A stretch of DNA of 63,755 nucleotides, filler included, from Collodictyon triciliatum (Eukaryota): assembly GCA_043381765.1 (NCBI GenBank). It is 21 parts of 21 records of this genome, joined end to end, with 100 filler letters (N's around TTAATTAATTAA, not from the genome) between each part and the next. Parts side by side here need not be neighbours in the genome. Positions count along the whole stretch, not along the records: positions 49,635 to 52,666 come from JBHJMP010007892.1; 20 more parts are not named here. The stretch is one strand, 5' to 3'. Of this stretch, positions 49,848-52,666 are shown piece after piece. The notes below the pieces were generated by a model that did not search any database, was not told where the DNA came from, and worked only from the letters and a program-made list of their open reading frames with translations. Position numbers and translations under genes: made by a program. Position 1 is the stretch's first letter. Every line of letters starts with the position of its first letter.

Positions 49848-52400
49848 CTTCCATTAACACAGACTCGTTCCTGGATCAGCGTTATGTCTCCTGTGGGAGA
49901 AAGAGAGAATGTTGGTTTAGTAGATCTTTTGGGTGTCACTTTTTCGGGGTTGGGTGATGGGGATCGGCTGCGCGAGTGTTTTGTGTTTGCCGAAGCGATT
50001 AGTTTGATCGAAGTTGCAACCGAGTTCTGATTTTATCGTTGGTTGCGTTCTGTTCTTCAAGTTTGCTACTTAAGCACAAAGATAAATGGTAGACATATGT
50101 TTGCCACAAATGAAAGAAAATGAAAGTAAAAAGAACAGCTTATTGCACCCTTCTTTTTTGAATAAAAAGGTGCGCACGTATCGCGGATGTCTAGTCTTTC
50201 TCGGTTGTAAGGAAAAAGGACTTGCTTCGATGACGCAGATGTATATTGGAGGAAAAGATATGATTTGGATGTTGCGTTTTGCTAAGCAAGAGGGATAGGG
50301 GAGTGTTCGCTTTATGCAACTATGGTAGAAAGGGGCAGTTATTCGAAAGTGTGGACACGGATTGTCTGTCAACCAACTCATTGCTGTTTCCATCGCCATC
50401 TGCACCCGATTCTTCCTCAAACCAGTCGACGGCTGATACAAACATCTCCCACACATCCGCTCTTTGGACGACACGGTATACACTTGTGCTTTGAATAAAG
50501 TCCGTCTTAATTTTGGAATGGCAAACAATCTCGAGTTTTTGGTTACCGCGCAGTGAATCACATATCTCTTGTGAAATCTGTTTGCGGTTTGAGTGCGAAC
50601 GAATATTATGTTGACTGTCCTTTTTTTTTTTTTTTTTTTTTTTTTTTTGAATGAATGAATGAATTGTGCAAAATGGCAATATTTTATACTTTTAGTTTGA
50701 GAAATATCATCATTGAATCCATTCTTTTAATTGAGTGATTATTTGGTATCTTTGTCACGAAATTACCATGACATTGCGAGAGTCTATTCTTCTTGCCACA
50801 AAAAGTGAGCGGGTCACTATTATACAGAGGAATAACTTTTCAGTCCCTGACTCAGAGTTTTGTGGAAGAACCAACTCATACTTAGAAAAAAAACCAACAG
50901 TTATGCTGGAAAAAAAAAATACCTGGAACACCAAAGCAGTCATAGGCAAAATGTTTTCCACCTTAGATATTTTTGAATTTAGGTTGAATCACTAAACAAA
51001 AACACCACTTGCACATATCCGAATAAAATTTAAAAAAAAAAATTGAATACCTATCGTCCCATATGAGATTGTCCCACTATCCATAAAAATAATGGTTTTC
51101 ATATCTCTGTGCTCCTCAACACGAGACATATCATGGAACACATCCAGTATCTAACCCACATTTTAATAATATATTTGGTTTACATATGGTTGTTATTATT
51201 TTTATTTTTGACCTCTTAAAAGATTAAAATAGAATAGACCAGAGAAGAGAATACCTTAAACGAAAATTCGAGTGACATTTCAATGTGCTTCATAAACAAA
51301 ATCTCACTTCCTCTTATTTTTGGTACCAGCTAGAGCAAAACAATATGGTTACTTATATATCCTTCTAAAATTGTAAAGATTAATTTTAAGAATTATTTAC
51401 CATGACCATGGTACTTGTGGACTTTATTATTTCCAAGTTGTAAGATTTGCTACAACTCTCTAAAGTTTGCATACATCCTGTCGCAGAGGCAATATTAGTC
51501 AAGAAACAGATTGAGGTATCGATATTCACACTTCACCTGATAAAAGGTTGAACTTTGACTCGCAACTGACCGCATCATCAAATAAGCAAGGGTGATTGAT
51601 ATGTATTGTCACTATAACAACTTTATCTCTGATATTTTGTGATTTTTCTGAATTATTTTTGATCTGGTCGAATGACTCTGGAGATAACGAAGAAGCGAGG
51701 GCTCGCTCTATGCTTTCGTTCTCTCTCATCAGCTCATGTATCCCCTGTTTTATTTCAGTTAAATACATGCAATTAATTGGCAATACTTTTAAATGAGTAG
51801 CATCCGCCTCGTTTATATCATATGTCTTTTTAATAAATAAAAAAATTGAATACTAATTGAAGTCTGTTTTGCTCAAGGTATTCTTTCCTTGATGAGTAAT
51901 CTCGAAATACCGTGAACATGTAAAAAAGTGAGGGCGGGAAAACAAGTGAAGTAGTGCAAAGAAGGAAAGCATCGAGCATCGGCATTCTATTTTTCCAATA
52001 AGTAAATAAAAACTAACATAAGTCGATACTAGAATGAATTAAGATAAAAAAATATATTAAATATTGAAATTTTCTAATAATATTGGTTAGATAAGCGCAA
52101 AGAGACTATAAAATAATTTCGTTATAGGAAGTCGAGGTAAAATTAATCGACTGACCCTATCTTCAGAAACTGAATAACATTAAGAGGAACCAAAAATAAA
52201 ATCCAAAGAAAAATATGTCCAAGAATGTATAACGGAGACGTCCCAACCAGAGAAACATAGAATATACCAATCTCAAAAACCTCCGTTATCAAAAACAAAT
52301 GATGAACTTCTGTAAAACAAATCCTATCTAGAATCACATTGTATACGTAGAACAACCGTAAGATAGAATATGCCGAGTAAAAAATTCCCGATATGAATGG
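49848..52400 (-). CDS. Transmembrane protein with a degenerate cyclase-homology domain (partial)
   Basis: TM helices, a helical linker IERALASSLSPE, then LEIIKSTSTMVM and IFMDSGTISYGTIGGKHFAYDCFG, a cyclase-fold pattern lacking the catalytic Asp residues. Confidence 0.6.
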
Positions 52401-52666
52401 TAGCCTCCACACATCGATCAATAATCCCTTAGAAGTCTTCCAGTCTCGATGAAGCCAAGTTGGAATAAGTAGCGCAAGCATCACGCAACCAATCAACCAG
52501 TTGGGACGCCCACCTGACCAGCTCGCTATCACTGATTTCTTTCCGGTGCTAGCCTCTCCACGGTAGTGTCTTCTCCTACTCGCGTTTGCTCTCTCCCATG
52601 CGCTCCCATCCCGCCCCTTTGTATGGCATAACCTCGCTGCATTTTGAATCGAATAAAGGAAAAAAA
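52400..52666 (+). mobile_element. Longest copy of the LINE-like 3' end (5' boundary approximate)
   Basis: Frame reads ...NPLEVFQSR*SQVGISSASITQPINQLGRPPDQLAITDFFPVLASPR-TAG, then about 95 bp of 3' UTR, TTTGAATCGAATAAAGG and poly(A) at the contig end. Confidence 0.88.

What the first reader, a model, noticed from the sequence alone, without database searches (positions are those of the whole stretch)
52400..52666. Dispersed non-LTR retroelement whose ORF ends in a TD-type PCNA-binding (PIP) box
Seen: copies at 52400-52666, 34994-35179, 22413-22527 and 2017-2053 share a common 3' end (TTTGAATCGAATAAAGG-polyA) with staggered 5' truncations, the hallmark of target-primed reverse transcription. 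The two longest end their ORF with RPPD-QLAITDFF (52519-52542) and RPPD-QLAITDFY (35031-35054). Within this motif they differ by synonymous changes (cct/cca, cag/caa) and an F/Y swap. A diverged copy at 10750-10782 (minus) keeps ITDFF followed by Arg at +4. Known: QxxI/L/MxxF/YF/Y is the PIP box; TD at positions 5-6 marks high-affinity boxes, and with a basic residue at +4 it forms the CRL4-Cdt2 PIP degron (p21, Cdt1, Set8); the human L1 ORF2p PIP box is internal, between EN and RT. Inference: this LINE family may dock on PCNA through a C-terminal PIP box, and some variants may carry an S-phase degron. The RT itself is not in this window.
Basis: partly seen in the sequence, partly recalled or inferred. 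Interest (0 to 1): 0.8.

Follow-up and report, generated by a model that had tools for sequence, protein, structure and literature searches.

The report
LINE tail ending in PCNA-docking motif
These are truncated 3' ends of a jumping gene (an L1-like LINE) from a freshwater eukaryote, and its protein ends in a flexible tail carrying a conserved textbook motif for binding the DNA sliding clamp PCNA, a position not reported for such elements.

Summary
The repeat is real, with corrected boundaries. Four copies, at 52482-52666, 34931-35179, 22409-22527 and 2017-2051, share one 3' end (AATAAA plus an A-run) and have staggered 5' ends. They lie on separate ~3 kb unplaced contigs that are chained by N linkers. 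Positions 52400-52481 are flank, not element.

The ORF does not end at FF. It runs seven more codons to a TAG.

Metagenome relatives, including a 98%-identical contig (L001), extend the ORF about 400 aa upstream. That stretch holds a Pfam zf-RVT domain. Its predicted fold ranks human L1 ORF2p's C-terminal domain first in all three structure searches.

Across five subfamilies (30-60% identity) the Q, T and first F of QxxITDFF never change. The 31 columns before the motif have no invariant position. Two subfamilies in this window encode ITDFF with five codons that differ only synonymously. The tail is predicted to be disordered. Eight relatives also carry R at +4, the full PIP-degron signature; the window's main subfamily does not.

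Three things were not shown:
- an RT in the same ORF;
- target-site duplications;
- PCNA binding (the complex job was not run).

Four literature searches found only the contested internal PIP box of human L1.

Verdict: a new variant of a known kind, at moderate to high interest.

The parts
52482..52666 (+). Copy 1: a 5'-truncated LINE 3' end. It holds the last 27 codons (52483-52563), the PIP-like motif QLAITDFF (52519-52542), stop TAG (52564-52566), a ~93-nt 3' UTR, AATAAA (52652-52657) and A7 (52660-52666). It runs into the contig end and N linker.
   Evidence: 98.4% identity to L001 869-1053.
34931..35179 (+). Copy 2: the longest copy in the window. It holds ~49 codons with a 2-nt gap near 34969 that shifts the frame, the motif QLAITDFY (35031-35054), stop TAG (35076-35078), the 3' UTR, AATAAA and A9 (35171-35179).
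   Evidence: 88.1% identity to L001 804-1055.
22409..22527 (+). Copy 3: the last few codons, the 3' UTR and A8. Its 5' truncation falls after the motif.
   Evidence: 85% identity to L001 937-1054.
2017..2051 (+). Copy 4: only the terminal ~25 nt of the 3' UTR plus an interrupted A-run.
   Evidence: (91% identity to L001 1022-1056).
10744..11092 (-). Decayed ORF2 C-terminal fragment of a sister subfamily (P0009/P0020-like). It has in-frame stops and two frameshifts, and its tail reads …PNRRMKFRITDFFSTTR… up to a TAG.
   Evidence: tblastn with P0009, E 7e-15, three frames. The five ITDFF codons differ from copy 1 only at synonymous third positions.
11172..11400 (-). Unit of a second short poly(A)-type repeat that ends in the same terminal 16-mer (1 mismatch). 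A possible non-autonomous partner.
11717..11960 (-). Second unit of that short repeat, ending in the same tail motif (2 mismatches) plus A6.

Best explanation
The four + strand copies are 5'-truncated 3' ends of a poly(A)-type non-LTR retrotransposon. Each holds the last codons of its ORF2-like protein, a ~93-nt 3' UTR, AATAAA and an A-run.

The protein's last folded module is an L1-type cysteine-histidine C-terminal domain (zf-RVT). After it comes a ~25-30 residue flexible tail. That tail carries a canonical TD-type PIP box, Q-x-x-I-T-D-F-F/Y, 5 to 14 residues from the stop.

The motif is kept by selection on the protein across at least five subfamilies. The most likely role is to dock the retrotransposon enzyme onto the host sliding clamp PCNA at the nicked target or at a replication fork. 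That would help target-primed reverse transcription and recruit clamp-bound repair factors. It would be the same host dependency described for human L1, met here by an exposed C-terminal motif.

Shown: the repeat anatomy, the reading frame, the zf-RVT domain, the motif conservation and the predicted disorder.
Inferred: the upstream RT and endonuclease, PCNA binding and its role in insertion.
For: Repeat anatomy:
- Four copies have one 3' end and 5' ends at L001 positions 804, 869, 937 and 1022.
- Contigs of run X13 laid on L001 give summed depth rising from 224 (bin 1-39) to 3425 (bin 1015-1053), then 135 and 0 after the A-run. There are many different loose ends behind 1053-1057 and before 810, 869, 1004, 1016, 1019 and 1020.

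Coding frame:
- L001 carries the same tail after an ORF with one frameshift. Contigs of X3 (1 of 1) and X13 (2 of 2) covering position 563 have an extra C there, so the frame is continuous in other copies.

LINE identity:
- zf-RVT (PF13966) scores above the 27.5-bit cut-off in P0004, P0005 and P0008 (the other 3 of 6 proteins do not reach that region) and in P0020, P0026, P0028 and P0016 (4 of 4).
- VIA-align puts human L1 ORF2p first for two models from different subfamilies. For P0010: Z 10.0, rmsd 3.9, 163 aligned, chain 1079-1275, next unrelated Z 6.6. For P0020: Z 8.3, chain 1114-1266, next unrelated Z 6.2.
- It is also rank 1 of 48,161 chains in the wide search (Z 9.4).

Motif conservation:
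- In five subfamily representatives the Q, T and first F are 5 of 5, and the I and second F are 4 of 5. None of the 31 preceding columns is invariant.
- 16 of 21 database proteins that reach the tail match [QN]xx[ILMV]xx[FY][FY]. Each matches once, always near the C-end and nowhere else.
- A random 30-residue tail of this composition matches in 0.2% of trials, and the strict TD form in 5 in a million.

Selection acts on the protein:
- The ITDFF codons of copy 1 and of the sister-subfamily copy at 10744-11092 differ at 5 of 5 third positions, all synonymous.
- The common variants listed by read laying in the last 30 codons (866, 908, 923, 932) are 4 of 4 synonymous, though 29 further rows were not shown.

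Accessibility:
- The tail has pLDDT below 50 in both models, after a domain with pLDDT 63-91.

Definitions and precedent:
- The PIP box and TD-motif definitions, and the statement that TD confers high affinity, come from passages of PMC3973308.
- The PCNA requirement of human L1 comes from passages of PMC10830420.
Against: - No sequence linking this C-terminal region to an RT or endonuclease was obtained. 'Longer' protein searches gave 1 short hit and none. Scans of genome contigs and viral contigs found nothing. Pfam on the longest relatives (up to 427 aa) shows only zf-RVT.
- No target-site duplication beyond chance was found in 3 of 3 testable copies.
- In the wide structure search the L1 ORF2p match (Z 9.4) is within 1 Z of a prenyltransferase (8.8). 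The tool warns that helical domains below Z ~13 can match by common arrangement. Foldseek alone gave no hit at E <= 0.001.
- The motif is degenerate in some members: P0014 has N at the hydrophobic position and P for D, P0018 has L for the first aromatic, and the window's decayed copy has K for Q.
- The database relatives are gene calls on metagenome contigs of at most ~2.1 kb. True stop codons were verified only for L001 and the window copies.
- The precedent itself is contested. In human ORF2p the PIP helix packs against the RT (PMC10830420, passages). A 2025 study predicts that PCNA binds a wrist 'PUB' site instead (PMC7617806, passages).
- PCNA binding of this tail was not tested here.
Confidence: 0.6

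Rival explanations
1. The conserved C-terminal peptide is functional but its partner is not PCNA. It could bind another reader of FF-type short motifs (Rev1- or Mlh1-interacting motifs overlap PIP-like sequences; recalled, not looked up here). It could bind the element's own ORF1 protein or RNA, or it could fold back on the C-terminal domain.
For: Conservation and disorder show only that the peptide matters, not what it binds. In human ORF2p a sequence that fits the PIP consensus is in fact a structural helix packed on the RT (PMC10830420 passages).
Against: The conserved positions are exactly the PCNA-contacting ones (1, 4, 7, 8) plus T5 and D6, while positions 2 and 3 vary freely. The strict TD form is expected 5 times in a million random tails. 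The motif sits in a predicted flexible tail, not inside a folded module.
Confidence: 0.25
2. The main role of the motif is regulated destruction. As a PIP degron it makes the enzyme a substrate of CRL4-Cdt2 once it is docked on chromatin-bound PCNA, limiting activity to a short window in S phase or after damage.
For: 8 of 21 tail-reaching relatives (P0010, P0012, P0016, P0017, P0019, P0020, P0021, P0023) match the full signature with R at +4 (signature from PMC3973308 passages). The decayed window copy also has R at +4. P0014 has K at +4.
Against: The window's main subfamily has A or P at +4, P0008 has P, and P0004 and P0027 have H and Q. So the basic residue is not conserved the way the core motif is. 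Whether the host has Cdt2 is unknown. An element gains nothing obvious from its own destruction.
Confidence: 0.1
3. The conservation is at the nucleic-acid level. The end of the ORF would be part of the 3' RNA element that the reverse transcriptase recognises, and the peptide would be incidental.
For: The terminal ~45 nt of the 3' UTR is the best conserved part among copies. The terminal 16-mer is shared with other short repeats.
Against: Between subfamilies the five ITDFF codons differ at every third position while the residues stay the same. RNAalifold on four copies of the 3' UTR gives -7.15 kcal/mol and 0 of 17 pairs with compensatory change. The flanking codons are not conserved.
Confidence: 0.03
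4. It is not a LINE. The copies would be processed pseudogenes of a cellular gene, or a SINE that only borrowed a tail.
For: No RT was linked and no target-site duplications were found.
Against: zf-RVT is present in 7 scanned relatives, and the L1 ORF2p C-terminal domain is the top fold match. There are at least five diverged subfamilies. 309 contigs were laid in one run, with a strong 3' bias.
Confidence: 0.03

Closest known systems
Human LINE-1 ORF2p and its PCNA link (internal PIP box, residues ~404-419; 'PUB' wrist site)
   Same: It is a poly(A)-type non-LTR element with frequent 5' truncation. It has a C-terminal Cys-His domain, which is the top fold match. A sequence fitting the PIP consensus is present, and PCNA is required for retrotransposition (PMC10830420 passages).
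   Different: The human motif lies between the endonuclease and the RT and is a helix packed on the RT. It is not a TD type, and its role as the PCNA site is disputed (PMC7617806 passages). Here the motif is a TD type in a predicted disordered tail after the last domain. No sequence similarity to ORF2p was detectable: the PDB profile search gave 0 hits.
Drosophila pogo DNA transposase PIP box
   Same: It is a mobile-element enzyme with a PCNA-binding motif good enough to have served as a model for high-affinity peptides (PMC4615156 passages). That the motif is C-terminal and of the TD type is recalled, not seen in a call.
   Different: pogo is a cut-and-paste DNA transposon, not a retroelement, and the protein fold is unrelated.
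PIP degrons of Cdt1, p21 and Set8 (CRL4-Cdt2 substrates)
   Same: They share the TD at positions 5-6. Eight relatives also have R at +4 (definition in PMC3973308 passages).
   Different: These are cellular cell-cycle regulators. In the window's main subfamily the +4 residue is A or P, so the degron signature is incomplete.
Bacterial IS transposases that bind the beta sliding clamp
   Same: They follow the same logic: a mobile-element enzyme hijacks the host replication clamp (PMC4549789, search listing and abstract only).
   Different: These are prokaryotic, with a different clamp, a different motif and a different transposition chemistry.

Membership tests
Non-LTR retrotransposon (LINE), L1-like ORF2 | Reverse transcriptase domain in the same ORF | tested here: inconclusive
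   No sequence reaching further than ~215 aa upstream of zf-RVT could be obtained. Pfam on P0020, P0026, P0028 and P0016 shows no RVT.
Non-LTR retrotransposon (LINE), L1-like ORF2 | Apurinic-type endonuclease domain | not testable with these tools
   No genome is held for the window, and the metagenome contigs are at most ~2.1 kb.
Non-LTR retrotransposon (LINE), L1-like ORF2 | C-terminal Cys-His zinc module (Pfam zf-RVT) | tested here: met
   Scores of 27.8-36.4 bits against a 27.5-bit cut-off in 7 relatives. The same ORF continues into the window's tail in L001.
Non-LTR retrotransposon (LINE), L1-like ORF2 | C-terminal domain fold like L1 ORF2p | tested here: inconclusive
   Rank 1 in three searches (Z 10.0, 8.3 and 9.4). 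In the wide search the margin is under 1 Z, and the domain is helical.
Non-LTR retrotransposon (LINE), L1-like ORF2 | Common 3' end with poly(A) and staggered 5' truncation | tested here: met
Non-LTR retrotransposon (LINE), L1-like ORF2 | Target-site duplications | tested here: not met
   The best exact flank repeats of 5-6 nt in 3 of 3 testable copies are no better than shuffles (841-1413 of 2000 shuffles reach them). The copies are 9-15% diverged, so decay is possible.
Canonical PIP box | Q/N-x-x-[MLVI]-x-x-[FY]-[FY] | tested here: met
   Copies 1 and 2 and 16 of 21 tail-reaching relatives match. The definition is from PMC3973308 passages.
Canonical PIP box | Lies in an accessible, disordered segment | tested here: met
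   The tail has pLDDT below 50 in two models. This is a prediction only.
Canonical PIP box | Binds PCNA | not testable with these tools
No binding test was completed.
PIP degron (CRL4-Cdt2) | TD at motif positions 5-6 | tested here: met
PIP degron (CRL4-Cdt2) | Basic residue at +4 | tested here: not met
   The window's main subfamily has A (copy 1, L001) or P (copy 2, P0030) at +4. The feature is met in 8 relatives of two other subfamilies and in the decayed copy at 10744-11092.
PIP degron (CRL4-Cdt2) | PCNA- and Cdt2-dependent degradation | not testable with these tools
   This needs an experiment.

The most novel reading that the evidence does not exclude
A clade of L1-like retrotransposons has evolved a genuine C-terminal PIP degron. 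The same eight-residue motif would dock the enzyme on chromatin-loaded PCNA to license insertion, and in subfamilies with R or K at +4 it would hand the enzyme to CRL4-Cdt2 for destruction. Each particle would then get one clamp-coupled attempt per S phase. Subfamilies that have lost the +4 base, including the one in this window, would have escaped that control.
Probability: 0.1. Interest if true: 0.85.

Novelty: new variant of a known kind. Interest (0 to 1): 0.6.

Why it matters
Human L1 needs PCNA, but how ORF2p contacts the clamp is disputed. Its PIP-like helix is buried, and a non-canonical wrist site has been proposed instead.

A distant L1-like family carries an exposed, conserved, high-affinity-type PIP box at its very C-terminus. 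That would be independent evolutionary evidence that clamp docking is a recurrent need of LINEs. It would also offer a clean natural system, a short peptide on a flexible tail, for testing what PCNA does during target-primed reverse transcription.

Some subfamilies carry the full PIP-degron signature and others lack it. That contrast is a ready-made natural experiment on whether hosts use clamp-coupled proteolysis against retrotransposons.

Tried and rejected
- Own-genome search: no genome is held.
- Earlier notes of this scan: nothing by place, sequence or words.
- Rfam and tRNA scans of the window: 0 hits each, so there is no evidence that the short repeats are tRNA- or 7SL-derived.
- Search for an RT-bearing full-length protein. 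'Longer' searches gave one 118-aa hit and none. Genome contigs and viral contigs gave nothing. The metagenome scan returned a single 1157-nt contig. Cluster members reach only 427 aa.
- PDB sequence profile search: 0 hits. Foldseek on PDB: nothing at E <= 0.001.
- ESM Atlas. For P0004 it only re-found zf-RVT clusters. For the N-terminal part of P0020 it found unnamed eukaryotic clusters with low shared-feature counts. Both are uninformative.
- Complex prediction of the tail with an archaeal PCNA stand-in: the tool did not fold the pair.
- Target-site duplications: none beyond chance.
- Conserved RNA structure in the 3' UTR: weak energy and no covariation in four copies.
- The first alignment (A1) was too diverse for a locus scan, so a smaller one was used.
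- Reading 52381-52566 as one ORF with the TGA read as X turned out to include flank. Only its last 27 codons belong to the element.
- Habitat. The tail's words are held at shares of 0.26-0.40 by 16 of 24 listed runs, mostly freshwater, lake, reservoir or drinking-water metagenomes. Only X1, X3, X13 and X14 were laid, so the habitat of the other runs is not established.
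Full report
**What the window is.** The 63,755 bases are not one locus. They are about 20 pieces of ~3.1 kb joined by N44-TTAATTAATTAA-N44 linkers, at 37% G+C. No genome is held for the window. Host-type genes are present:
- a WD40 / ephrin-receptor-like repeat / membrane protein at 35379-37577 (-);
- a PP2C fragment at 32343-32816;
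- a polyprenyl synthase fragment at 60042-60650 (-).

So this is a eukaryote's bin of unplaced contigs, where repeats are expected to pile up.

**The observation.** blastn of the tail against the window, and of the longer relative L001 against the window, gives four + strand copies that all end in …TTGAATCGAATAAAGG plus A7-A9. They start at different points of the element:

| Copy | Window position | L001 position | Identity |
|---|---|---|---|
| 1 | 52482-52666 | 869-1053 | 98.4% |
| 2 | 34931-35179 | 804-1055 | 88.1% |
| 3 | 22409-22527 | 937-1054 | 85% |
| 4 | 2017-2051 | 1022-1056 | 91% |

The terminal 16-mer occurs 8 times in the window with up to 3 mismatches, against 1.62 expected; 0 of 100 shuffles reach 8.

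- 52400-52481 is flank. It matches neither L001 nor copy 2, and the in-frame TGA at 52450 lies in it.
- Copy 2 begins 63 nt further upstream than stated and has a 2-nt gap that shifts the frame.
- The ORF runs seven codons beyond FF, to TAG at 52564-52566 and at 35076-35078.

No target-site duplication beyond chance was found in the three copies whose two flanks are present.

**What it belongs to.** A protein search with the tail found P0002. A full HMMER scan with P0002 found seven relatives. A profile search and a cluster look-up brought the set to 29 database proteins, P0002-P0030. All come from metagenome or other assemblies on contigs of at most ~2.1 kb. One metagenome contig, L001 (1157 nt), is 98.4% identical to copy 1 over 185 nt. 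It carries the upstream ORF, the stop, the ~93-nt 3' UTR, AATAAA, A10 and then unrelated flank.

L001 has one frameshift. Contigs of two runs that cover that place (X3 1 of 1, X13 2 of 2) have one extra C there, so the frame is continuous in other copies.

Pfam finds zf-RVT, the zinc module at the C-terminal side of non-LTR reverse transcriptases. It scores above its curated cut-off in P0004, P0005 and P0008 (3 of 6 scanned; the other three do not reach that region) and in P0020, P0026, P0028 and P0016 (4 of 4).

AlphaFold models of two subfamilies give a confident helical domain followed by a low-confidence tail. The structure searches against PDB gave:
- Foldseek alone: nothing significant.
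- VIA-align second look, P0010 model: human L1 ORF2p first, Z 10.0, chain residues 1079-1275, next unrelated row 6.6.
- VIA-align second look, P0020 model: human L1 ORF2p first, Z 8.3, chain residues 1114-1266, next unrelated row 6.2.
- Unfiltered search of 48,161 chains: L1 ORF2p first at Z 9.4, but a prenyltransferase follows at 8.8, which the tool counts as a tie.

I read this as good but not conclusive support for an L1-type C-terminal domain. No sequence reaching an RT or an endonuclease was obtained, so that part of the anatomy is inferred.

**Copy number and dispersal outside the window.** Laid on L001, run X13 gives 309 contigs, 128 of them at least 99% alike. Their summed depth rises from 224 at the 5' end to 3425 at the tail and falls to 0 beyond the A-run. 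Different unrelated sequences follow the A-run and precede several internal points. The tool warns that summed contig depth is not a copy number. The pattern is what many 5'-truncated insertions would give. One RNA-library run (X14) holds a 319-nt contig covering 810-1055, which does not prove transcription.

**The motif.** The two window copies that reach it read QLAITDFF (copy 1) and QLAITDFY (copy 2). The relatives fall into five subfamilies at roughly 30-60% identity:

| Subfamily | Motif | Residues that follow |
|---|---|---|
| A (window copies, L001, P0002/3/29/30) | QLA[IV]TDF[FY] | seven more |
| B (P0004, 10, 12, 16-19, 25, 27) | QT[AV]ITD[FY]F | nine more |
| C (P0008) | QSVITNFF | seven more |
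| D (P0020, 21, 23) | QFLITDYF | about fourteen more |
| E (P0014) | QYFNTPFF | about thirteen more |

Evidence on conservation:
- In five representatives the Q, T and first F are invariant, and the I and second F are 4 of 5. The 31 aligned columns before the motif have no invariant position.
- Of the 29 database proteins, 8 stop before the tail. Of the 21 that reach it, 16 match the published relaxed consensus, each once and nowhere else in the protein.
- The 5 that do not match are P0007 and P0026 (frame lost before the motif), P0009 (frame lost inside it), P0018 (L for the first aromatic) and P0014.
- A random 30-residue tail of the family's composition matches in 0.2% of trials, and the strict TD form in 5 of a million.

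It spans 10744-11092 on the minus strand, with stops, two frameshifts and K in place of Q. Its five ITDFF codons differ from those of copy 1 at every third position and never in the residue. The common variants that read laying lists in the last 30 codons of L001 are 4 of 4 synonymous, though 29 further rows were not shown. Selection therefore acts on the peptide and not on the RNA. An RNAalifold test of the 3' UTR showed no covariation.

**How it most likely works.** Positions 1, 4, 7 and 8 are the PCNA-contacting positions of the PIP box. T5-D6 is the rare addition that gives high affinity and marks CRL4-Cdt2 substrates (PMC3973308, passages). The motif sits in a tail predicted to be disordered, just after the last folded domain. 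That is the usual setting of working PIP boxes such as that of p21 (recalled).

Human L1 needs PCNA (PMC10830420, passages). The contact site is disputed, however. The internal PIP helix packs on the RT (same paper), and a 2025 study predicts a non-canonical site in the wrist domain (PMC7617806, passages).

My best reading, at about 0.6, is that this family meets the same need with an exposed C-terminal PIP box. The box would tether the enzyme to the clamp at the nicked target or at a fork.

Eight relatives in subfamilies B and D also have R at +4, the complete degron signature. Subfamily A, the one in this window, has A or P there. The degron reading is therefore possible for sister subfamilies only, and I give it about 0.1. 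Binding itself was not tested.

**Novelty.** Four full-text searches returned only work on the human L1 motif. For other mobile elements they returned pogo transposase and bacterial IS transposases that bind the beta clamp. I found no report of a C-terminal PIP box in a LINE in that library. Subscription-only papers and supplements were not searched.

**Verdict.** The repeat, its LINE nature and the selective conservation of a TD-type PIP motif near the ORF end are well supported. The RT link, target-site duplications and PCNA binding are open.

Noticed in passing
window 1-63755 (linkers e.g. 52667-52766): The window is a chain of about 20 contigs of ~3.1 kb each, joined by N44-TTAATTAATTAA-N44. 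Many pieces end in microsatellites, for example (GT)n at 12400-12463 and (AAGAAC)n from 52767. Neighbouring features on different pieces are not physically linked.
   Followed up: partly
window 11172-12130 (-): Four same-strand occurrences of the LINE's terminal 16-mer lie 270-390 nt apart, at 12128, 11739, 11460 and 11191. Two of the intervening ~230-nt units align with each other. This looks like a cluster of a second, short poly(A)-type repeat that shares only the LINE's 3' terminus, next to the decayed LINE fragment. They may be non-autonomous partners. No tRNA or Rfam match was found.
   Followed up: partly
window 35379-37577 (-): A long open frame, cut by the contig end, combines WD40 repeats, four ephrin-receptor-like cysteine repeats and a multi-pass hydrophobic C-terminal half. 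LINE copy 2 lies about 200 nt beyond its stop.
   Followed up: partly
window 28216-30948 (-): A 910-codon open frame is rich in low-complexity repeats, with (QS)n at the contig end. It was not searched.
   Followed up: no
window 31800-32816: A 541-N gap interrupts a PP2C phosphatase gene fragment (PF00481, 56 bits).
   Followed up: partly
window 53577-54083 (-) and 60042-60650 (-): There is a weak leishmanolysin-like match (20.7 bits, just under the 21-bit cut-off) and a polyprenyl synthase fragment (69.8 bits). These are host genes of no bearing on the finding.
   Followed up: partly
L001 and runs X1-X16: Near-identical copies of the LINE tail turn up in assemblies of many freshwater, lake, reservoir and drinking-water metagenomes and in one run of a coded organism. 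This suggests the host or a close relative is a common freshwater eukaryote. Only four runs were laid.
   Followed up: partly
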